DNA of 20,000 nt from an uncultured virus (IMG/VR IMGVR_UViG_3300022552_000007) (Duplodnaviria; Heunggongvirae; Uroviricota; Caudoviricetes): the IMG/VR virus record IMGVR_UViG_3300022552_000007; one strand, given 5' to 3'. Positions 1-19,724 of the stretch are shown in pieces; the first letter of the stretch is position 1; each line of letters starts with the position of its first letter. The position numbers and the translations under genes were made by a program. The notes below the pieces were generated by a model that made no database searches, had not been told where the DNA came from, and saw only the letters and a list, made by a program, of their open reading frames with translations.

Positions 1-2832
1 CGGTACGCCGAAGGGATGATTCCGATCTTGGAAAACATTGCTGCCAAGACCCTCATGACTGGTGAGCAAGTCACTGCTTTGGCCAATGCCTTTGCTCGCG
101 TTGGCGTGTTCCTCGATCCGGGCAATACCCGGCAGATGGCAGCTTTTACCGCCGTGGCCAACGCTCTGCCCATTTTGACCCGTGGGCAGGAAATCATGAA
201 ACAGATCAATACGGAAATCCGCGCTTTGACCCAAGGCACCAACATGGCCACTTCCATGTTGCTTACTACCCTTCATGCCTTAGACCCCTTGATTAAAAAA
301 CACATCATTAAGTGGCGTGAAGAAAACACCGTGTTGGAACATATTGGTGAAATGCTTTCCGGTTTTATTCCGGCCTCAAAACTCCTGGCCGAACAATGGC
401 AGGCCATTAAGAATGCGTTGATTACGGTGTGGAAGCAGACGTTGCGTGGCGGAATGCTGGGCGCTTACAAAGAGATCATCGCAATCGTCAAGAAGCTGAC
501 TGAATGGATTAAGGTACACCGGGATCAAATTTCGCAAGGGTTGGCGACTGCGTGGGCAGTGGTGTTGGAAACAATAAAATTGGTCGGAAACGCCCTGCGT
601 CCTTGGGGGCCGCTCATCAAAGAAGTGGCGCATGAATTACAATTTGTGGCTTCTTTATATGTTCGAATTGCAGGGCTGATAAATGATGCGGCAGCGCGGC
701 AAAAGGGCATTATTTGGCATACTATACAATGGGTTCAATATCTGAAAGCTGCGTATATGTGGCTGGGCTATGTTGCCACGTTTGATTTTAAAAACGCTAG
801 AAAAGCTGTTGATGAGATGCAGGCGCGTTTTGATGCTATTTTCAATGATATAGCCGGTGCGTACAAGGAAAATCCCATAGAAGAAGTTGTGGATACCATC
901 GAAAGTTCTGCAAAAAGAACTAGTAAGCTGATGAAGATCCTGGAAATGGACACCAGCAAAGCCTTTCAAAAAATTGGGGAAGGTGCATTGGGCGTGAGGG
1001 ATTCTTTATCAAAAGCTGCGGAAGCGCTTGATTTTACCCTGCCATCTATCACTGCTTTTCAGGCCGAAGAAACTGCGCATCTCTTTGAAAAGGCAGTGGA
1101 GGATGCTGAAAAGTTGGTCAATGCTTCCACCATCAAATTGAACACGCTCCAGAAGGCTTGGGTTTCGGGCAACCGCGAAGCATTGATGGCCATTTTGCGC
1201 GGAATGAATGAAGATGCTACATGGACTGCCTCAGAAATGGACGAGGTTTATAGGTCCACCGTTGAAATGTTGAAATATATAATAGATTCGACAACGGGAG
1301 ACCTTGAGCGCTTGCGCAAAGAATATGAAAAAACAATGAAAAAGCTGCGGGAAGAATCGGCTGTTGGGCAGGCTTTTAAGTTGTTGGGCTTTAAAACGAG
1401 CGCGGGCAAACAATCGGAAGAAAAAGAAATACGTGATGCGTATAAGATTGTCGTCACCAATATTGAAAAGGAATTAGTGCGAGCCAGGGCGGAACTAGCT
1501 CAGTTCGAACGTGCGGGCGTACCGGCTCCAGGAGTGGTCAGTGCCGCGGTTCTTGCCGATTTAGAACAAAAAAAGAAAGCATACCGCGAAAAGATTCAGG
1601 GCTTGGAAACGGATTTGAAGGCTGCGGGCAAACGAATGCAGGAAGCCATAGACAAAATTTACGGTGTGGGCAGCCGTCGTCGCGGCGGCAAGTCCCAATT
1701 CCAGACCGATCTGGAAAATTGGAAAAAGACCGCAGAAGAATTGCAGAAGGAATTGCGTTACCTGGGCGTGGAAGGTATCGAAAAGGAATTGATGGAAATC
1801 GAAGACCGATACCAGGAATTGCGCAACATGCCGCGGGCAGACAAAGGTTTAATAGATGAGTGGAAAAGCAAGAAAGTGGTTCAGGCTTGGATCGAAGAAG
1901 GCAAGCAGCTAAAGGATCTGGACCCGCTACTCCAGAAACACAAGGGGATGTTGGAAGCGGAGCGTCGGGCACAGGAGCTTCTTGGGGAAGCTGCGGAACA
2001 GGCTCGTTGGAAGGAAATTCAGGCATTGGCGAATGTCGGCGATGCTTACAAGGAATTCCGCGCCGCTTCTACCGATGAAGAAAAGCAGCGAATCGCAGAA
2101 ATGATTTACGCGAGCAAAAAGTGGCAGGATGCCTATCGACTGTCGTTGGATGATTACGCAGCGCACGCAGCAAAGGTTGGCGGGCAGGTGTACGATGTGA
2201 TGACAGATGCCCTGTACAAGACGGAAGATGCCTTGATGGAATTCTGTATGACGGGCAAGGCGAGCTTTGCCGACCTCGCCAATTCTATCATAGAAGACAT
2301 CATGCGGATCTACGTCCGTTCGCAGATCCTTGGTCCGATTGCGGAAGGTATTGGTCAGGGCGATTGGTTGACGAAAGCAGTTGGTTTTGTGGGCGGCATT
2401 TTATCCGGCGGTAGCGGTTTCGCAGGTCCGACACATATCGGGGCGGGAGGAACTACGGCCTTTAATATGGCCAAAGGCGGTTTCCTGCCCAACGATACCA
2501 GTCATGTAAATAAGGTGCTCACCAAGCCTACCTTTATTCCCTTTGCCGCAGGGGGCGTGCTTGCGGGCGAAGCAGGCAAGGAAGCCGTCATGCCGCTTAC
2601 TCGCACCAGCTCGGGCAATTTGGGAGTGGAAGCTATTGGTCTGAAAAGGGGTCAAGGTGTTACGGTCAACATTCACGAAGCTCCCGGCACTCGCGCCAAT
2701 GTGCAAACTAGTGATGACGGGATGAGCGTGGATGTGTTCATTGAACAGATTGAAAACACTATTTCCGGTCGGATTTCTCGGGGGACCGGGCTTGGTTCTT
2801 TCCTTGACAGCCGATATCGTAGGAGGATGTGA
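1..2832 (+). CDS. Phage tail tape measure protein (5'-truncated by the window edge)
   Basis: The frame is open from base 1. The protein is long, Ala/Glu/Lys-rich and helical. Its C-terminus has lambda-type TMP motifs (EDALMEFCMTGKASFADLANSIIEDI; AKGG...FAAGGVLAGEAGKEAVMPLTR...LGV), and tail-tip genes follow. Confidence 0.92.
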   Translation, partial: RYAEGMIPILENIAAKTLMTGEQVTALANAFARVGVFLDPGNTRQMAAFTAVANALPILTRGQEIMKQINTEIRALTQGTNMATSMLLTTLHALDPLIKKHIIKWREENTVLEHIGEMLSGFIPASKLLAEQWQAIKNALITVWKQTLRGGMLGAYKEIIAIVKKLTEWIKVHRDQISQGLATAWAVVLETIKLVGNALRPWGPLIKEVAHELQFVASLYVRIAGLINDAAARQKGIIWHTIQWVQYLKAAYMWLGYVATFDFKNARKAVDEMQARFDAIFNDIAGAYKENPIEEVVDTIESSAKRTSKLMKILEMDTSKAFQKIGEGALGVRDSLSKAAEALDFTLPSITAFQAEETAHLFEKAVEDAEKLVNASTIKLNTLQKAWVSGNREALMAILRGMNEDATWTASEMDEVYRSTVEMLKYIIDSTTGDLERLRKEYEKTMKKLREESAVGQAFKLLGFKTSAGKQSEEKEIRDAYKIVVTNIEKELVRARAELAQFERAGVPAPGVVSAAVLADLEQKKKAYREKIQGLETDLKAAGKRMQEAIDKIYGVGSRRRGGKSQFQTDLENWKKTAEELQKELRYLGVEGIEKELMEIEDRYQELRNMPRADKGLIDEWKSKKVVQAWIEEGKQLKDLDPLLQKHKGMLEAERRAQELLGEAAEQARWKEIQALANVGDAYKEFRAASTDEEKQRIAEMIYASKKWQDAYRLSLDDYAAHAAKVGGQVYDVMTDALYKTEDALMEFCMTGKASFADLANSIIEDIMRIYVRSQILGPIAEGIGQGDWLTKAVGFVGGILSGGSGFAGPTHIGAGGTTAFNMAKGGFLPNDTSHVNKVLTKPTFIPFAAGGVLAGEAGKEAVMPLTRTSSGNLGVEAIGLKRGQGVTVNIHEAPGTRANVQTSDDGMSVDVFIEQIENTISGRISRGTGLGSFLDSRYRRRM

Positions 2833-3182
2833 TGGCTGCTGTAGCATGGCCAGAAACATTGCCAGCGCCACTACATGAACATTCTCAGGAATACGTCAAT
2901 GGACTTGCAAATCCAGATGAAGTGCTATGGCCGCAAAGGGTGCGTCGCATCCCGGATTTGAAAGATTCTCTTAGGTGGGTATTCACTCAAGAGCAGATGG
3001 AATCGTTTCGGGATTTTTTCTACACCGATTTGAATGCGGGCTGTGCCTGGTTTTCGGCTGATTGGGTGTCTTTGCTTTTTGATGACGCGGATTATGTGCG
3101 GTTTGACGGGGTTTATTCCAGTCAGTTGATAGGCGATGGCTTGTGGTCGGTGTCTGGTGCGGTGGAGGTCATGCGGATATGA
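2832..3182 (+). CDS. Minor tail / distal tail (Dit-like) protein, paralogue 1
   Basis: TGATG overlap with the TMP stop and an AGGAGG RBS at 2821-2826 favour the ATG at 2832. Motifs WPETLPAP...WVFTQEQMESFRDFFYTDLNAGCAWF...VRF...WSVSGAVEV are typical of the small gene after TMP in siphoviruses. Confidence 0.75.
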   Translation: MAAVAWPETLPAPLHEHSQEYVNGLANPDEVLWPQRVRRIPDLKDSLRWVFTQEQMESFRDFFYTDLNAGCAWFSADWVSLLFDDADYVRFDGVYSSQLIGDGLWSVSGAVEVMRI

Positions 3183-3565
3183 CGTTAACTTCCTGGCCAA
3201 GTGGGGTGTCTGCGCCAAGCGTGGGCGATTTGCGGATTATTCCCACAGAATCTGTCAAGATCCGCAGGTTGGAAAGTGGCCGAGTGGAGGTTCGTCGGTT
3301 TGGTTCAGGAGCACCTTACCGTTTCGAGGGCAGCATTGAGATGAGTCAGACAGAATATGAGACATTTTGTCAATGGTACGAAGGCGACCATGAGCTCGGC
3401 ACAGTGTGGAGCGAAGCGGATTGGCTATCTACCATTGGATTTTCTTCCGATACTTATGTTGTTCGTGTTATTGTGCTACCAAAGGCAGCTCGGCACAACG
3501 GGCACCGGGCAACGGTTTCTTTCAACTTACTAGTGCAAGATAGGGCAAAGGTAAGTGAAGCGTGA
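3179..3565 (+). CDS. Minor tail / Dit-like protein, paralogue 2
   Basis: ATGA overlap places the start at 3179 (MTLTSWPSGVSAP...). It shares WPxxxxxP, RRxESGRxEVRRFGSG and GxxWxxADW motifs with its neighbours. Confidence 0.7.
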   Translation: MTLTSWPSGVSAPSVGDLRIIPTESVKIRRLESGRVEVRRFGSGAPYRFEGSIEMSQTEYETFCQWYEGDHELGTVWSEADWLSTIGFSSDTYVVRVIVLPKAARHNGHRATVSFNLLVQDRAKVSEA

Positions 3566-4869
3566 CGCGGCTCGTATATTTACCGACATCTGTAAGTTGG
3601 CCGGAGGGGGTTCCGCCCCCACTACGGTGGAAGGTTGGCACGTCTCCGCTGCCCACGGTAAAATCACGAAGAACAGAAAGTGGAAGAACCGAAGTTCGTC
3701 GGTTTGGTTCAGGGGAACCAGACAAATTGGAGGCCGTGTGGCTACTGACCGCAAGCGAGTACCAAATTTTCCGTCGTTTCTACGAAGGTCCGCCTTGGTA
3801 CGCAGAAGACGGCGTGCGGCTGGATTGTCAATTAGGCACCGTGTGGATAACGGCGGATTGGCTTTGGGAACTCGGTTATTACCATCACGAGATCCGTTTT
3901 TGGAGTTCCCCCCGAGTCCGGCGCTTTGGCGCAGCGGTGGAAGTTACCGCGACCATGTTAATTCAGCACGAGGATCGCATTATGCGGGAATGGCCACTAT
4001 GGGAATGGACTTGTTTTCCAATGGCGGCCCGCGTCACCCATTTTTACTCCGAGCAGTTGATTCACGGACTTTCGACGGCACGGGTAACGGATTTATACAG
4101 CGAGCAGTTGATTCACGGACTTGCGAAGGTTCGGGTAACCCATTTCTACAGCGAAGTCCTTTACCTTCCGAAGGCAAAGCCGCGGGTAACCCATTTCTAC
4201 AGCGAAGTCCTTTACCTTCCGAAGGCAAAGCCGCGGGTAACCCATTTCTACAGCGAAGTCCTTCGGGAAGGTGGCGCTGTTGCCAGGACCACCCGTTTTT
4301 ACGCAGAAGTGCTTTTCAGTATTCCGTGGGGCGGAGGCCCCGGCAGCGAAGGAGGAATGTTTGATGGTATTTGCAGGGTTGCTTCCAGAGGGGTTTCTTT
4401 ACTGGATGGCCGGGCGCATATCCTTCCGAATCAGTTCGATGGTAAGGCGGTGGTTAAGGATGTTGCTACCGATCAGTTTGACGGCAAGGCAACTTTGGGC
4501 ACTCCTGTCGTGGAACAGTTCGATGGTCAGGTGTTGGTTGAGCAAGCTCCTGTTAATACCTTTGATGGCAAGGCCGTGGTGGTGTTGCCTGTTTACGCTC
4601 GCATTACTCAACAGTACGCGGAGGTGGCCGGAAAAGATTTGTCAGACGAAGCTCGTGTCACTCAACAGTACGCGGAGGTGGCCGGAAAAGATTTGTCAGA
4701 CGAAGCTCGTGTCACTCAACAGTACGCGGAGGTGGCCTGGCGGCCGCCTTTAAACAGGTTTGATGGAAAAGTTCGCATTAAAGATGAAAATACAATTTCC
4801 TTTGATGGAGAAGTTCATATTAAGGATGAAAACACAGCTTCATTTGATGGAAAGGCCGTTGTTGAATAG
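3562..4869 (+). CDS. Tail protein: N-terminal Dit-like domain plus C-terminal repeat scaffold (RxTxxYxE and FDG repeats)
   Basis: GTGA overlap with the upstream gene. The first ~140 aa are clearly paralogous to 3179-3565. The remainder consists of 17-aa, 18-aa and ~14-aa repeats. Confidence 0.75.
   Translation: MTRLVYLPTSVSWPEGVPPPLRWKVGTSPLPTVKSRRTESGRTEVRRFGSGEPDKLEAVWLLTASEYQIFRRFYEGPPWYAEDGVRLDCQLGTVWITADWLWELGYYHHEIRFWSSPRVRRFGAAVEVTATMLIQHEDRIMREWPLWEWTCFPMAARVTHFYSEQLIHGLSTARVTDLYSEQLIHGLAKVRVTHFYSEVLYLPKAKPRVTHFYSEVLYLPKAKPRVTHFYSEVLREGGAVARTTRFYAEVLFSIPWGGGPGSEGGMFDGICRVASRGVSLLDGRAHILPNQFDGKAVVKDVATDQFDGKATLGTPVVEQFDGQVLVEQAPVNTFDGKAVVVLPVYARITQQYAEVAGKDLSDEARVTQQYAEVAGKDLSDEARVTQQYAEVAWRPPLNRFDGKVRIKDENTISFDGEVHIKDENTASFDGKAVVE
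4027..4314 (+). repeat. Intragenic 51-nt (17-aa) tandem repeat, 6 units, xR(V/T)TxxY(S/A)E(Q/V)L
   Basis: Arg codons fall at 4030, 4081, 4132, 4183, 4234 and 4285. The stretch 4132-4263 is a perfect repeat (2 full units plus 30 nt). Confidence 0.95.
4597..4737 (+). repeat. Intragenic 54-nt (18-aa) tandem repeat, about 2.6 units, AR(I/V)TQQYAEVAGKDLSDE
   Basis: Units start at 4597, 4651 and 4705 and are near-identical at DNA level. Confidence 0.95.
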
Positions 4870-4884
4870 TAAGGGGGGTTGGTT

Positions 4885-5928
4885 ATGGCGATACATCTTA
4901 TGACAGGATTTGAGGGATGTAATAGTGTAGGAGAATGCTATGCGATTTTAAATGCCTATGCGCTTTATCTAAGTCATGGAAGCAGTAATTTTGAACCGAC
5001 CGGTGGGTTCAATTCGTCCCGAGGATTGCGGCTAAATGTGGATGATAGCATTGTTGACAACAGAGGAGTTCGTTTACTATGCATTTTGCCAACTGCGCTT
5101 GTTGGAAAAACAGTGGCTGCCGGTTGTTATTTTAAGGCGTCTGTTTTGGGGTATAAGTTGGACAATTACGGATCAGGAACAATTCTCGGCTTTCATGGCC
5201 CTGATATTAAAATTATGAGTACTTCTATAGGAGGATTGAAAATTTTTCGTGGGTCAACAGAACTGAAGGAAATCGCCGCTGGCCTTGTTGCAAATCAATG
5301 GTTCCATATTGAAGTGTGCTTATTTTCAGATGCTTCAGCGGGCACTATTGTAATAAAAGTAAACGGACATGAAATATGTAATGAATCTGGCTTGAATACA
5401 GACGGCCAAGATATCACAGGCATTCGATTGAGCTCACCATACACAAAGCATGGCAATTCGTATTATGATAACATCTACTTTGCAGATGAACTCCAGGGAA
5501 TGCTCCAAATGTCTTTAGCTCGCCCAAACGGTGACTATGACGCGGACGATTTTACTTGTTCATCAGGGACAGATCGTTATGCTTTGATTGATGAGGATTA
5601 TGACGGCGACGCTTCTTATATTGAAAGCGACACAGTTGGGCATCAAGCTATTTTTGATTATGAGGATTACGCGGCAGGTGGTACTGTTGTTGCTGTTCAA
5701 GTGAATACCATAGCAAAACAGACAGATTCAGGCAGATCTATCAAGCATGTTTTTGTTCAAGATTCATCAGTGTATGATGGAGATGAATTTGCTCTTGGAT
5801 TAGATTATCCTGGGCAAGGTGCGTTGATTCCACCATATTTTGAAGTGTTGAACACTCTTCCAGACGGTTCTGCTTGGACAACGTCTGGTTTTAACGATCT
5901 TAAAATCGGAGTTGAAGTGAGCGCGTAA
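4885..5928 (+). CDS. Virion protein with a ConA/LamG-like N-terminal domain and an acidic beta-rich C-terminal domain (putative adhesin), paralogue 1
   Basis: AAGGGGGG at 4871-4878 favours the ATG at 4885. LamG-like motifs NQWFHIEV...GTIVIKVNG...YYDNIYF are present, and the gene lies in the tail operon. Confidence 0.65.
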   Translation: MAIHLMTGFEGCNSVGECYAILNAYALYLSHGSSNFEPTGGFNSSRGLRLNVDDSIVDNRGVRLLCILPTALVGKTVAAGCYFKASVLGYKLDNYGSGTILGFHGPDIKIMSTSIGGLKIFRGSTELKEIAAGLVANQWFHIEVCLFSDASAGTIVIKVNGHEICNESGLNTDGQDITGIRLSSPYTKHGNSYYDNIYFADELQGMLQMSLARPNGDYDADDFTCSSGTDRYALIDEDYDGDASYIESDTVGHQAIFDYEDYAAGGTVVAVQVNTIAKQTDSGRSIKHVFVQDSSVYDGDEFALGLDYPGQGALIPPYFEVLNTLPDGSAWTTSGFNDLKIGVEVSA

Positions 5929-5940
5929 GGAGAAGCAGTC

Positions 5941-7155
5941 ATGGCCAACATAGAATTTTTTACCGGTTTTGATGGGATGGGCACCACTGCCGATATGTAT
6001 GCTTTTTTCGAAAATAGAGGCACAATAGATAATACGTATAATGCTTTTCTTGATACCACCAATGGCTATAACGATTCTCATTGTTTACAATTGAAAGCAA
6101 CTCTTACAAGAGATGCGCCTTGGATAGAAAAAGAAGTCATTGCAGGAAAAGTGAAGACCATAGGATTTCATTGTAAAATACCCGATAGCAATATCTATGC
6201 TTCGACGTTGGTCACGATCCGTTTTTCCTCTGGACGGAATTACTACGTGAAGGCGCCCGCTGGTGGGGAAGGCATTAGTATTTATGAACACAGTACAAAG
6301 CTCGCGGATAGTGGCGGAATCGGCGTTCCTGGCACTCTTAGCCATCTTGAAATAAAAATGCATAGCGATTCAGTAAATGGGTATTTCGGTGTGAAGTTAA
6401 ACGGGATTTTGATCATTGATTATTACGGCCCAACTAACGGTTCCGATGTTATTGCGTTTCGTCTTCACGGATTGAATTGCGTGGATCTTAAAGTGTATAA
6501 CAGTTATTTCGACAATCTTTTCATTGCTGATGATTGGGTTGGAGAATGCCGGGCCGTTGTAAAGCGCCCTTCACAGGATATTATTTCCGAGTTTGAACCG
6601 AGTAATGTAAGCGCATTCAATTATACAATGGTGAATGATGCGGGCGGGCACGACGCTGATGAGACTTACAATGAGACAGAAGACAGCGCCATTGATCTTT
6701 TTGAATTCGAAGATTTCGATCAGGATGTGTCCATTAAGGCCGTAAGTCTTGTGGGTGTCGCCAGAAAAACAGATGTGAGCGAATACCCGGTTATGTTTCG
6801 GTTTTTGGCACATGACGGCGATGTTTCTTGGGATTCTTCCGGCGCTGTTGATTCTTCCGGTTCCGGCGACTCTTCATTATCTTCTGAGGAATATAATGAA
6901 TTGATCGAAGAAATGTATTACGGCAATGAATACGCGCTTGATACGGTGTACCCGCAGGCACTTAATTCTGGCTATTTTCAATGTTTTTCACAAACCCCCA
7001 ACGGAGAAGAATGGACAAAAGAGGTTTTTGAAAACTATCTATGGGGTTATTGGGGTCGGGTACCGGTGCTTTCCACCACCAATTTTGACGGCAAGGTGAA
7101 ACTTATCCGGGATCTGAATTTCGACGGCAAAGCAGAGGTGACAGATGGAACTTAA
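5941..7155 (+). CDS. Virion protein with a ConA/LamG-like domain, paralogue 2, ending in two FDGK motifs
   Basis: AAGGAG RBS. It aligns by eye with 4885-5928 (TGFDG/TGFEG, HLEI/HIEV, KLNG/KVNG, SYFDNLFIAD/SYYDNIYFAD, PNGEEWT/PDGSAWT). Confidence 0.65.
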   Translation: MANIEFFTGFDGMGTTADMYAFFENRGTIDNTYNAFLDTTNGYNDSHCLQLKATLTRDAPWIEKEVIAGKVKTIGFHCKIPDSNIYASTLVTIRFSSGRNYYVKAPAGGEGISIYEHSTKLADSGGIGVPGTLSHLEIKMHSDSVNGYFGVKLNGILIIDYYGPTNGSDVIAFRLHGLNCVDLKVYNSYFDNLFIADDWVGECRAVVKRPSQDIISEFEPSNVSAFNYTMVNDAGGHDADETYNETEDSAIDLFEFEDFDQDVSIKAVSLVGVARKTDVSEYPVMFRFLAHDGDVSWDSSGAVDSSGSGDSSLSSEEYNELIEEMYYGNEYALDTVYPQALNSGYFQCFSQTPNGEEWTKEVFENYLWGYWGRVPVLSTTNFDGKVKLIRDLNFDGKAEVTDGT

Positions 7156-7624
7156 TGATGCCATAAAACAAGCATACGAGTTCGCCCCTGCGGACGAAAT
7201 CTACTACGATACACTTCAGTTAGATAATGACTGTTTCACGGAACCAATCAAGGTAGTGGACAGTTACGAGGAGTTGGTGACGAACCAAGGAACTTTTCTC
7301 CCGGTAAGATTTAGTTTCAAGCTTCCCGAAGTGGGCAGTGGCATCCGCGGCCAAATGACCATTACCGTGATGGGAGTGCCTTTGTCTGCGAGAAATATCA
7401 TTCGGGTGGCGGCTAGCCAGACATACGTGACTACGGTGACCTACCGTCAATATCTCAAAGGCGACATGGACCCCAGTGCGTATTTTCCAGTGCCGTTGTC
7501 GGTGCAAAAAATTGTTGAGAATTATGATGGAATAGAATTCACGGCAGTCGTGCCGGATCTGACAGCGCTGTATTTCCCCCGTCGTCTGATGGATACCACC
7601 AATTTACCAGGGGCGCGATTCTAA
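7145..7624 (+). CDS. DUF1833-family minor tail (hub) protein
   Basis: AYEFAPADEIYYDTLQL...FLPVRFSFKLPE...VTYRQYL...FPRRL matches the family pattern, and the gene sits directly before NlpC/P60 and the tail tip gene. Confidence 0.8.
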   Translation: MELNDAIKQAYEFAPADEIYYDTLQLDNDCFTEPIKVVDSYEELVTNQGTFLPVRFSFKLPEVGSGIRGQMTITVMGVPLSARNIIRVAASQTYVTTVTYRQYLKGDMDPSAYFPVPLSVQKIVENYDGIEFTAVVPDLTALYFPRRLMDTTNLPGARF

Positions 7625-18962: not shown

Positions 18963-19724
18963 TCACCACGCTTCTGCTTCCTCTCGTGTCAGAAAGAAAT
19001 GAATGCCGTGGCTGCAATATATCCGCTCGTCTGGATCATACTTATCTGGTGCGGTGCATTTACCGACGCGATAGATTGTTTTTGAGTCATAACCCCCACA
19101 ACACTCCTTTAAAGGGTGTCCATTTTTACCTTCAATTTCGAGAGTAATCACATACTCTGCGCGGCATTTTCGGTTTGTTAAGCAGAATGTTCGTCTGGCC
19201 CATGAGGGGATTTTGAGTTTGATTATTTCTCCGTTCCTGCCCTTTTTCCAAGCTACAAATGAACCAGAAGAGGGCACTATACTTTGTGGGCTTAATTTTG
19301 CGTTCCACAGTTTAGCTCCATTCAGAGCAGCATTTCTTAGATCAGCATTTCTTAGATCAGCATTTCTTAGATCAGCATTTCTTAGATCAACATTTCTTAA
19401 ATCGGCACCATTTAAATTAGCTTCGCATAAATTAGCCCAGCACAGAGAAGCCCCCCTTAAATTAGCATTTCTTAAATTAGCTTTCTTTAAAGTAGCTCTA
19501 AGTAAAACAGCCCATTTTAAAGTAGCTTCATTTAAATTAGCTTTATATAGATCAACATAGCTTAGATTAGCGCTTGTTAAATCAGTTTTACATAAAAACG
19601 CTTGCCGTAAATTGGTTTTGCGCAGATTGGCTTTGCTCAAATCAGCCCAACTTAAATCAGCGCCTACTAGTGTACCCCCATCTACAGACAGGAGAGTTTT
19701 GCCAGATTTAGATTTGATTTCCAC
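18963..19724 (-). CDS. Pentapeptide-repeat protein with a C-terminal DUF5758-like domain
   Basis: A(D/N)Lxx repeats are followed by AWKK...IIKLKIP...RKCRA...YRVG...CSHGIHFFLTREEA. GTG start with AGGAG RBS. Confidence 0.88.
   Translation of the reverse strand: MEIKSKSGKTLLSVDGGTLVGADLSWADLSKANLRKTNLRQAFLCKTDLTSANLSYVDLYKANLNEATLKWAVLLRATLKKANLRNANLRGASLCWANLCEANLNGADLRNVDLRNADLRNADLRNADLRNAALNGAKLWNAKLSPQSIVPSSGSFVAWKKGRNGEIIKLKIPSWARRTFCLTNRKCRAEYVITLEIEGKNGHPLKECCGGYDSKTIYRVGKCTAPDKYDPDERIYCSHGIHFFLTREEAEAW
19328..19387 (-). repeat. 15-nt perfect tandem repeat x4 (DLRNA units)
   Basis: CAGCATTTCTTAGAT occurs four times on the + strand, plus one degenerate copy. Confidence 0.9.

What the first reader, a model, noticed from the sequence alone, without database searches (positions are those of the whole stretch)
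3562..7155. Repeat-scaffold plus lectin module: possible donor-strand docking system for multiple adhesins on the tail
Seen: a Dit-like domain is fused to nine copies of RxTxxYxE(V/Q) (6 at 17-aa spacing, 3 at 18-aa spacing), and two paralogous LamG-like proteins follow directly. All of this sits between the Dit-like genes and DUF1833. Inference: each motif looks like a single amphipathic beta strand. The 4885-5928 protein stops right after WT..GFNDLKIGVEV. From memory of similar phage domains (not verified), an R-x-T-Q-x-Y-x-E-V strand follows at this point in cis. The scaffold may therefore supply the missing strand in trans, as in pilus donor-strand complementation, with repeat number setting adhesin valency and repeat type (THFYSEV vs TQQYAEV) selecting the paralogue.
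Basis: partly seen in the sequence, partly recalled or inferred. Interest (0 to 1): 0.8.

Follow-up and report, generated by a model that had tools for sequence, protein, structure and literature searches.

The report
Plug-and-socket lectin docking on phage tail
A phage tail protein carries nine copies of a short strand motif that probably act as plugs for the conserved rear domain of the two sugar-binding-type proteins encoded next to it, a gene pairing found in many unrelated phages.

Summary
The 435-aa product of 3562-4869 carries nine R-x-T-x-x-Y-x-E units (six 17 aa apart, three 18 aa apart; shuffles give 0.007). Two paralogous ConA/LamG-like proteins follow, and the region lies between the tape-measure gene and DUF1833.

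The docking idea is largely supported:
- **Gene pairing.** Searching collections for the motif returned 10 distinct loci with visible neighbours. In 9, the motif gene lies directly beside a gene of the P0002 family. One is Caulobacter phage phiCbK (69-aa three-motif protein, then the family member).
- **Reverse search.** Starting from the family, motif-profile hits occurred only in ORFs beside family genes.
- **Complex model.** The third TQQYAEV unit sits on the P0002 C-terminal domain (ipSAE 0.87, best control 0.02), on its most conserved residues.

Not supported:
- The family normally ends where P0002 ends (148 of 149).
- The P0002 monomer model is complete (pLDDT 95), so a missing strand is not shown.
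- "Dit-like" rests on gene position only.
- Repeat-type selectivity for each paralogue is untested.

The closest known system is the rope-and-bead fibres of podophages A1002 and GP4, which use different protein families.

The parts
1..2832 (+). Tape-measure protein (5' end cut by the window); context that places the module at the tail tip
   Evidence: PF09718 E 3.5e-22; phrog_1716 and phrog_339
2829..3182 (+). Small paralogue 1 (117 aa) of the scaffold's N-terminal domain
   Evidence: phrog_384 E 8.5e-6; alignment A5
3143..3565 (+). Small paralogue 2 (140 aa) of the scaffold's N-terminal domain
   Evidence: phrog_384 E 1.1e-5; 39% identity to the scaffold N-domain in A5
3562..4869 (+). Scaffold ('rope') protein P0001, 435 aa: N-terminal phrog_384-type domain followed by two kinds of repeat
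3562..4026 (+). N-terminal domain (about residues 1-155). Presumed tail-tip ring or anchor domain, by gene position only
   Evidence: phrog_384 E 2.8e-8 over residues 9-153; no Pfam, PDB or gpM similarity
4030..4311 (+). Block A: six plug units, RVT[HD][FL]YSE[QV] (last one RTTRFYAEV), 17 aa apart
   Evidence: TRF periods of 51 nt, the stretch 4132-4263 100% identical
4357..4596 (+). FDGK block 1: six units of about 14 aa (two degenerate, four strict)
   Evidence: related LDGK repeat proteins
4600..4734 (+). Block B: three plug units R[IV]TQQYAEV, 18 aa apart. The third unit (residues 383-391) is the one docked in the complex model
   Evidence: (4606-4737, 100% identical)
4756..4866 (+). FDGK block 2: three units, 14 aa apart, at the scaffold C-terminus
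   Evidence: TRF period 42 nt
4885..5928 (+). P0002, lectin-like 'bead' 1. ConA/LamG-like jelly roll (residues 1 to about 205, numbered from 4879) plus a conserved C-terminal beta-sandwich 'socket' (206-349)
   Evidence: phrog_2448 E 1.4e-15; AF2 pLDDT 95.1; Cip1 Z 18.5; predicted interface
5941..7155 (+). P0003, lectin-like 'bead' 2 (404 aa). Same two domains, a Ser/Gly-rich insert, and a C-terminal tail of two FDGK units (7084-7152)
   Evidence: phrog_2448 E 2.8e-10; BLASTP to P0002 E 2e-19
7145..7624 (+). DUF1833 minor tail protein, downstream boundary of the module
   Evidence: PF08875 E 7.4e-11; phrog_396 E 4.6e-20

Best explanation
The region encodes a multivalent plug-and-socket attachment system at the tip of a lambda-like siphophage tail.

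**Rope.** P0001 is the rope. Its N-terminal domain, a paralogue of the two small genes that follow the tape-measure gene, presumably sits in the tail tip. This step is inferred from gene position only. Its C-terminal 280 residues are an extended chain with nine short strand motifs, consensus [A/L/V]-R-[V/I]-T-x-x-Y-x-E-V.

**Beads.** Each motif is a plug for the conserved C-terminal beta-sandwich of a P0002-family protein. That protein's variable N-terminal ConA/LamG-like domain is the outward-facing head, probably glycan-binding. In the model the plug lies antiparallel to strand 273-280. It is covered by the interdomain linker 206-216. Its arginine lies against the family's near-invariant D-x-D-x-x-Y-x-E loop.

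**Valency.** One rope could hold up to nine heads of two kinds. Gain or loss of whole units in the perfect DNA repeats changes that number.

**What is shown and what is not.**
- Shown: the repeats, the paralogy, the fold of P0002, the recurrent gene pairing, and the copy-number variation.
- Modelled, not shown: the contact itself.
- Inferred: location on the virion, stoichiometry, sugar binding, and which paralogue uses which block.
For: **1. Motif-first searches.**
- DNA patterns for (V)TQQYAEV and R[VIM]TQQY[AV]EV, and tblastn with the repeats, were run.
- They gave 10 distinct loci with tandem or terminal motifs and visible neighbours: L007, L009 (near-identical to L033), L017, L028, L031, L032, L034, L035, L036 and phiCbK L038.
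- In 9 of the 10, a P0002-family gene lies directly beside the motif gene (hmmsearch with the A2 profile, E 3.5e-43 to 4.3e-101). The phiCbK family member comes from the tblastn hits in phiCbK-like records and its sequence.
- The 17 loci without a tandem motif hold no family gene.

**2. Position of the motif.** In all 8 co-oriented cases outside the window the motifs sit at the terminus next to the family gene. They are N-terminal in the downstream protein (L007, L031, L032, L034, L036) or C-terminal in the upstream one (L009, L035, phiCbK).

**3. Family-first sample.**
- Of 30 loci (L040-L069), 21 hold a family gene.
- A motif HMM built from 55 unique units hits 9 of these 21. It also hits L039, a locus from a separate search.
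- Every hit is in an ORF beside a family gene. There are none in the 9 loci without the family.
- Diverged repeats are seen by eye directly downstream in 5 of the 10 further family loci inspected: L040, L055, L057, L062 and L064. L063 carries the same downstream ORF as L057.

**4. Stand-alone plug proteins.** phrog_13560 matches the L028 ORF (E 9.4e-12). phiCbK gp316 is 69 aa with 3 units.

**5. Complex model.**
- ipSAE was 0.87, 0.81 and 0.88 (median 0.87); the best of 3 controls was 0.02.
- This mark was reached by 116 of 157 solved complexes and 2 of 215 mismatched pairs. These counts hold only roughly because my own alignments were used.
- The runs share at least 96% of contacts. The partner's pLDDT was 48-52.
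- No solved relative of the family exists to copy from.

**6. Conservation of the site.** Predicted interface residues are more conserved than the rest (top-residue frequency 0.55 against 0.38, Mann-Whitney p 1e-8; within the C-domain 0.54 against 0.42, p 7e-4).

**7. Copy-number variation.** P0006 matches P0001 in every aligned column (alignment A3) and lacks exactly one unit of each block.
Against: - The contact is a model only, and the partner's own pLDDT is about 50.
- Only P0002 with block B was modelled. P0003 and block A were not.
- The P0001 monomer model is useless (pLDDT 30.8).
- Three cultured phages with a family member (Kimi, Pam4, Delta) show no motif within 6-7 kb. Four family loci (L044, L048, L065, L069) show none by eye. 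L017 has motifs but no family gene in the 6 kb held.
- In the phiCbK record the neighbouring tail proteins are noted as virion-associated, but gp316 and gp315 are not.
- The conservation test does not separate buried from exposed residues.
- The tail-tip location of the N-domain rests on gene order alone.
- Relative L003 keeps both blocks with only one lectin gene.
Confidence: 0.6

Rival explanations
1. Strict donor-strand complementation. The C-terminal domain of the lectin proteins is an incomplete fold with an open groove, and the plug supplies the missing strand, as in chaperone-usher pili.
For: In the complex model, alternate plug residues (R383, T385, Q387, A389, V391) touch residues from several strands at once (259, 261, 273-280, 343-345). 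There are 156-158 confident contacts for 18 residues, which suggests deep burial.
Against: The monomer folds confidently without the strand (pLDDT 95.1, pTM 0.92; last strand 342-347 in place). The family ends at this point in 148 of the 149 members that reach the profile end. No member carries the strand in cis (0 of 154). I could not inspect coordinates for a groove.
Confidence: 0.15
2. Transient assembly factor. The P0002-family protein binds the motif of its neighbour during folding or assembly, like a tail-fibre assembly protein, and is not a lasting part of the virion.
For: The motif sits at the very N-terminus of large downstream fibre-like proteins. In the phiCbK record gp315 and gp316 lack the virion-associated note that the neighbouring tail proteins carry, and they lie last in the tail module.
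Against: A structural relative in Achromobacter phage AchV4 is named a virion structural protein. The family has a variable lectin-like head and occurs in arrays of up to five paralogues (L039), which is typical of receptor-binding diversification. Nine sites on one chain are hard to explain for a chaperone.
Confidence: 0.12
3. Self-contained fibre. The RVT and FDGK repeats fold together, possibly as an oligomer, into a beta-rich stalk. The lectin genes are neighbours only because both belong to the tail module.
For: FDGK/LDGK units of 14 aa form long runs behind LamG heads in other phage proteins and look like shaft repeats. DSSP on the low-confidence P0001 model gives strands at the units.
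Against: The RVT motif occurs in any number from 1 to 9, in 66-80-aa stand-alone proteins, and at either terminus. It lay beside a family gene in 9 of 10 motif-first loci, and every motif-profile hit in the family-first sample was in an ORF beside a family gene. FDGK repeats do not travel with it outside this lineage. The complex model scores far above its controls.
Confidence: 0.08
4. Recombination linker. The conserved units at gene boundaries serve mainly as homology patches for swapping tail modules, not as binding sites.
For: The motif lies at the junction between the two genes in all 8 co-oriented cases outside the window. The DNA repeats in the window are 100% identical.
Against: Conservation is at the protein level across very different DNA. 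The 55 unique units share R, T, E and V positions. Key positions map to a conserved protein surface in the model.
Confidence: 0.05

Closest known systems
Chain-like ('rope-and-bead') fibres of podophages A1002, GP4 and VP1 (PMC13730344; sections 9 and 11 and passages read)
   Same: One extended rope segment fused to a structural tail protein (the fibre-dock domain of nozzle-rope gp39) offers many successive sites, 11 in A1002. Each bead forms an augmented beta-sheet with the rope. Two different bead proteins (gp40, gp41) occupy different stretches of one rope.
   Different: Those beads are dimers of about 140-170 aa with the gp80 fold. Here the beads are 350-400 aa two-domain proteins with a ConA/LamG head, and they match no Pfam family. 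Here the rope is fused to a small domain encoded right after the tape-measure gene of a siphophage. The plug is a defined, widely conserved 9-residue motif that also occurs in free 66-80-aa proteins. Docking here is modelled, not solved.
Donor-strand complementation in chaperone-usher pili (recalled knowledge; no paper read here)
   Same: A short amphipathic strand from one chain is taken up by a beta-sandwich of another chain.
   Different: No chaperone or usher is present. The acceptor is predicted complete on its own. Many plugs sit on one chain rather than one per subunit in a head-to-tail polymer.
Caulobacter phage phiCbK gp316 and gp315 (NC_019405, both annotated as hypothetical proteins)
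   Same: gp316 has three R[VL]TQxTVEV units 17 aa apart. The P0002-family gene gp315 follows directly, at the end of the tail module.
   Different: The plug protein is free-standing (69 aa) and not fused to a tail domain. There is one lectin gene. Position 6 of the motif is T rather than Y.
Adaptor-mediated branching of receptor-binding proteins, such as lactococcal TP901-1 BppU/BppL and multi-tailspike phages (recalled knowledge; not examined here)
   Same: Many receptor-binding modules are hung on a tail-tip scaffold to give high avidity or several specificities.
   Different: Those systems use folded adaptor domains and trimer-to-trimer contacts, not a tandem array of short linear strand motifs.

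Membership tests
P0002 family (phrog_2448; two-domain phage lectin-like proteins) | Full-length match to the family profile | tested here: met
   phrog_2448 E 1.4e-15 (P0002) and 2.8e-10 (P0003). A profile search finds 11,994 representative clusters at E <= 0.001.
P0002 family (phrog_2448; two-domain phage lectin-like proteins) | N-terminal ConA/LamG-like jelly roll plus C-terminal beta-sandwich that ends at ...W..(x)..G.(K/E)V | tested here: met
   AF2 pLDDT 95.1. Cip1 3zyp Z 18.5, rmsd 2.6, 184 residues aligned. Viral models align over the whole length, TM 0.82. C-terminus as in 148 of 149 members.
Rope-and-bead chain-like fibres (A1002, GP4, VP1) | Rope protein with several successive docking sites, fused to or bound to a tail structural protein | tested here: met
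   Nine motif units behind a domain encoded right after the tape-measure gene. The attachment of that domain to the tail is inferred.
Rope-and-bead chain-like fibres (A1002, GP4, VP1) | Bead protein with the gp80-type fold, acting as a dimer | tested here: not met
   P0002 and P0003 match no Pfam family at E <= 0.01 and fold as LamG plus a sandwich of 349 aa. Oligomeric state was not tested.
Rope-and-bead chain-like fibres (A1002, GP4, VP1) | Beta-sheet augmentation between bead and rope | tested here: inconclusive
   The model puts plug residues 383-391 antiparallel to strand 273-280 (ipSAE 0.87, best control 0.02). There is no experimental structure.
Donor-strand complementation (chaperone-usher type) | Acceptor domain lacks a strand and has an open hydrophobic groove | tested here: inconclusive
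   The monomer model is complete and confident, and the family ends here. However, the model buries alternate plug residues between several strands. Coordinates could not be inspected.
Donor-strand complementation (chaperone-usher type) | Dedicated chaperone and usher genes | tested here: not met
   Pfam and PHROG scans of the window's tail genes name none. PHROG scans of the rest of the window name none.
Distal tail protein (Dit) or lambda gpM | Sequence or profile similarity to a known Dit or gpM | tested here: not met
   No Pfam family at E <= 10. No PDB chain at E <= 10. hhalign against lambda gpM gives probability 0.4%.
Distal tail protein (Dit) or lambda gpM | Gene directly downstream of the tape-measure gene; tube-like ring fold | tested here: inconclusive
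   The position is met. The fold is unknown because the P0001 model has pLDDT 30.8.

The most novel reading that the evidence does not exclude
A general attachment code exists in tailed phages. The conserved C-terminal domain of a very large lectin-like family (about 12,000 clusters at 50% identity) is a universal socket for the strand R-[VI]-T-x-x-Y-x-E-V. Any protein that carries 1 to 9 such plugs becomes a carrier of exchangeable sugar-binding heads; carriers seen here include a tail-tip domain, a fibre, another lectin and a free 69-aa peptide. Slippage in the plug array retunes valency between near-identical phages. Placement of the plug at the gene junction favours assembly of the pair as they are translated from one mRNA.
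Probability: 0.45. Interest if true: 0.8.

Novelty: new variant of a known kind. Interest (0 to 1): 0.72.

Why it matters
- **A function for two unannotated families.** The work gives a testable role to a very large phage protein family (phrog_2448 type, 11,994 representative clusters) and to a small family of repeat peptides (phrog_13560). Both are present in the model phage phiCbK.
- **A wider principle.** If the docking is real, rope-and-bead fibres, so far solved only in a few podophages with other proteins, are one case of a broader design. Short linear strand motifs would serve as modular sockets for receptor-binding heads, with valency set by repeat number.
- **Practical use.** It would help predict host-recognition proteins in metagenomic phages. 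It would also offer a simple handle for studying how phages display several binding heads at once.

Tried and rejected
- **P0001 structure.** AF2 with 5 sequences gave pLDDT 30.8 and is unusable. The Atlas's own model is also poor (pTM 0.27), and its feature hits scored 0.85 or less.
- **P0001 in cultured phages.** tblastn of P0001 against cultured phages found nothing.
- **The search for related loci with family alignments.** P0018 as a single query found nothing, and P0002 found one locus. A DNA pattern for the DGDTTYV loop replaced these searches.
- **TQQYAEV pattern scan.** Most of the 20 hits were chance matches in unrelated proteins. They served as a control.
- **Genome collection.** It gave only L029 (a single motif, probably chance) and L030 (a 1.1-kb contig whose neighbours cannot be seen).
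- **N-domain identity.** The PDB profile search, Pfam and hhalign against lambda gpM were all negative. DUF1833 against lambda gpL by BLASTP gave nothing.
- **C-terminal domain fold.** Fold searches were filled by the N-terminal LamG domain, so the C-terminal domain was barely tested.
- **Paralogue selectivity.** Comparing socket residues of P0002 and P0003 was not decisive. T277G and V345A make the pocket smaller-sided, while I343W makes it larger.
- **Literature.** Four searches found no paper on this motif or family. Only the A1002 paper describes an analogous system. The searches do not cover most subscription journals.
- **Read laying.** All runs were contigs that break at the perfect repeats. 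No contig bridges a repeat block, so copy number in the population cannot be read directly.

Full report
**Setting.** The window holds the tail module of a lambda-like siphophage on the + strand.
- A tape-measure gene (PF09718, E 3.5e-22) is followed by three paralogous genes: 2829-3182, 3143-3565 and 3562-4869. All three match phrog_384.
- Two phrog_2448 genes come next (4885-5928 and 5941-7155).
- After them lie DUF1833 (phrog_396, minor tail protein), a phrog_329 minor tail protein and a J-like central fibre.
- The rest of the window, on the - strand, holds replication-type genes.
- The window matches a 16.6-kb viral metagenome record, G001.

**The observation.** It is correct.
- The 435-aa product P0001 carries nine R-x-T-x-x-Y-x-E units. 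Six are 17 aa apart (residues 157-250) and three are 18 aa apart (347-391). They are the only such units in the six frames of the window.
- Shuffles of the protein give 0.007 on average, at most 1 in 20,000.
- Two stretches of the DNA repeats are 100% identical: 4132-4263 with period 51, and 4606-4737 with period 54.
- The two following proteins are paralogues (E 2e-19, 24% identity).
It occurs seven times strictly and twice in degenerate form in P0001. It occurs twice more as the C-terminal tail of P0003.

**The lectin-like proteins.**
- A profile of P0002, P0003 and four relatives finds 11,994 representative clusters at E <= 0.001 among 1.84 billion representatives. This is one of the large phage families without a name.
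- With 70 sequences, AlphaFold2 gives P0002 a pLDDT of 95.1 and pTM of 0.92.
- Residues 1 to about 205 form a ConA/LamG-type jelly roll. The best matches are Cip1 (3zyp: Z 18.5, rmsd 2.6, 184 aligned), TtX122A, and PL14, PL20 and PL36 lyases. By sequence there is only a weak hit to glucuronan lyase (E 0.086).
- Residues 206-349 form a beta-sandwich whose last strand, 342-347, is in place.
- Predicted viral structures align over the whole length (TM 0.82). Several phages carry multiple paralogues, among them Achromobacter AchV4 ("virion structural protein") and Serratia JS26.
- The family ends where P0002 ends. Of 154 members held, 149 reach the profile end, and 148 of those have at most 8 residues beyond it. 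The single exception is the P0003-type representative with the FDGK tail.
- None of the 154 carries the R-x-T-x-x-Y-x-E motif.

**The motif travels with the family.** This is the main new result. I searched for the motif itself.
- *Viral contigs.* A DNA pattern for TQQYAEV hit 20 loci. Most are chance matches in unrelated proteins. Three have tandem units:
  - L007/L010: a 444-aa fibre-like protein that starts with three units.
  - L009: a protein with two LamG domains that ends with three units.
  - L017: two units.
  - In L007 and L009 a P0002-family gene lies directly beside the motif gene (E 1.6e-44 and 3.1e-50). None of the other 17 loci holds one.
- *Metagenome contigs.* A stricter pattern hit 7 loci, one of which is the window's own contig. 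All six others have a family gene directly beside the motif gene (E 3.5e-43 to 4.3e-101). L033 is near-identical to L009.
- *Cultured and deposited phages.* tblastn with block B found one huge uncultured phage. There, an 81-aa ORF with four units lies beside two family genes.
  - That ORF matches phrog_13560 (E 9.4e-12).
  - By tblastn it also matches the phiCbK group (17 Caulobacter records).
- *phiCbK.* The 1412-aa tail protein gp317 is followed by gp316, which is 69 aa with three R[VL]TQxTVEV units 17 aa apart. The family member gp315 comes next, and then the endolysin gene.
- *Tally.* Nine of 10 distinct motif loci with visible neighbours have the family gene next door.
- *Position.* In all 8 co-oriented cases outside the window the units lie at the protein terminus that faces the family gene.

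**The reverse search.**
- A DNA pattern for the family's DGDTTYV loop gave 30 viral loci, 21 of them with a family gene.
- An HMM built from 55 unique units hits 9 of these 21. It also hits L039, which holds five tandem family paralogues followed by a 658-aa protein with three N-terminal units.
- Every hit is in an ORF beside a family gene. There are none in the 9 loci without the family, and none elsewhere.
- By eye, diverged repeats of the same build lie directly downstream in 5 of the 10 further family loci inspected: L040, L055, L057, L062 and L064. L063 carries the same downstream ORF as L057. Examples are RTTNIGAIVEF, RVSSLGVEVL and VTQDxxELA.
- None is evident in L044, L048, L065 or L069. 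None is found in phages Kimi, Pam4 or Delta.
- Some loci look like duplicates: L041 and L068, L052 and L060, L040 and L066.

**The modelled contact.** One complex job was run with P0002 (70-row alignment) and P0001 residues 340-400.
- The ipSAE was 0.87, 0.81 and 0.88 (median 0.87). The best of three controls was 0.02.
- This mark was reached by 116 of 157 solved complexes and 2 of 215 mismatched pairs. These counts hold only roughly because my own alignments were used.
- The runs share at least 96% of contacts. The partner's pLDDT is 48-52, so its own fold is uncertain.
- The docked piece is residues 379-396, which contains the third TQQYAEV unit.
- It lies antiparallel to strand 273-280. It touches the linker 206-216, the loop 236-251, residues 257-261 and 343-347, and the N-terminal strand 5-13.
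- R383 lies by residues 246-249 of the near-invariant D-x-D-x-x-Y-x-E loop.
- No solved relative of the family exists, so a pass from memory is unlikely.
- The predicted interface residues are more conserved than the rest of the protein (0.55 against 0.38, p 1e-8; within the C-domain 0.54 against 0.42, p 7e-4). This test does not correct for burial.
- P0003 keeps D242, D244, Y247 and E249.
- The model supports binding but does not show it.

**What remains open.**
- *Complementation or augmentation.* The monomer model is complete, so strict donor-strand complementation is not shown. Edge-strand addition under the interdomain linker fits as well.
- *Which paralogue uses which block.*
  - Relative L003 (62% identical scaffold) has both blocks but only the P0003 orthologue.
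  - Its block B reads Y-x-T-Q-Q-R-A-E-V, with R1 and Y6 exchanged.
  - This could mean that block B belongs to P0002 and drifts once P0002 is lost. It is a single case.
- *The N-terminal domain.* It is "Dit-like" only by position. It matches no Pfam family or PDB chain, and shows no similarity to lambda gpM.
- *The FDGK units.* They belong to a wider 14-aa (F/L)DGK repeat that forms long runs behind LamG heads in other metagenomic proteins and looks like a shaft repeat. Outside this lineage it does not accompany the plug motif. Why P0003 ends in two such units is unexplained.

**Copy number.** Relatives carry 6+3, 5+2, 6+2 and 5+3 units.
- P0006 matches P0001 in every aligned column (alignment A3). 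It lacks exactly one 17-aa unit and one 18-aa unit.
- Contigs of public runs break at the perfect repeats. In run X1, which may be the source of this DNA, the repeat unitigs have about twice the depth of their flanks, as the assembled copy number predicts.
- In run X2 the block A unitig has the same depth as its flank (4.7 against 5.16). This is a weak hint of one unit fewer.

**Comparison with what is known.**
- The nearest solved system is the chain-like fibre of podophages A1002, GP4 and VP1. I read sections 9 and 11 and further passages of PMC13730344.
- In A1002 the rope-like fibre-dock domain of nozzle-rope gp39 binds 11 dimers of two bead proteins, each through an augmented beta-sheet.
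- The logic is the same here. The bead family, the plug motif, the carrier protein and the phage type all differ.
- Four literature searches found no description of this motif or family. Most subscription journals are not covered.
It is an unchecked AI note, not independent support.

**Verdict.** The docking idea is supported by strong gene linkage and one well-controlled model. The mechanism detail (a missing strand, paralogue selection) is not established. This is a new variant of a recently described kind, and it is likely widespread.

Noticed in passing
window 4357-4596, 4756-4866, 7084-7152; proteins P0010-P0012, P0167-P0174: A 14-aa (F/L)DGKxx(V/I) repeat is shared by the scaffold and the C-terminal tail of P0003. 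In other metagenomic proteins it forms runs of up to about 25 units behind LamG (PF13385) or SPRY heads. It matches no Pfam or PHROG family and looks like an unnamed fibre-shaft repeat.
   Followed up: partly
L003 8294-9346 (also P0008, P0009): In a relative that lacks the P0002 orthologue, block B reads Y-[VI]-T-Q-Q-R-A-E-V. The arginine of position 1 and the tyrosine of position 6 have changed places, in three near-identical copies.
   Followed up: partly
window about 6800-6860 (P0003 Ser/Gly-rich insert): Run X3 has an 18-nt insertion behind 6831, which adds one more hexapeptide of the SSGAVD type. The L003 orthologue also has an extra copy. This is a second small repeat-number polymorphism, inside the lectin's C-domain insert.
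   Followed up: no
window 2829-4026: Three paralogous copies of one small domain follow the tape-measure gene (117 aa, 140 aa and the first 155 aa of the scaffold). Each starts with W-P-x-x-[VL]-[PS]-x-P. They have no detectable relative in Pfam or PDB.
   Followed up: partly
L032 7-2295 (-), L034 740-1963, L036 5926-6984: Plug-bearing partner proteins in other phages share TxxFTE(T/Q) repeats and a conserved C-terminal domain (LRNP(E/Q)F...RINR.TRGG...). This domain resembles the window's phrog_384-type domain in pattern but matches no PHROG or Pfam family.
   Followed up: no
L005 7071-10943 (Pseudanabaena phage Pam4): The 1291-aa protein after the Pam4 family member starts with a different duplicated peptide (VGAVAPxxLA, twice). 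It may be an unrelated analogue of the plug, or chance.
   Followed up: no
L039 1313-6944: Five tandem P0002-family paralogues in a row, followed by one protein with three plugs. The numbers of heads and plugs do not match one to one.
   Followed up: no
window 18963-19724 (-): A 253-aa protein with four matched stretches of phrog_7713 (unknown function), so it is internally repeated. It lies in the replication-side module.
   Followed up: no
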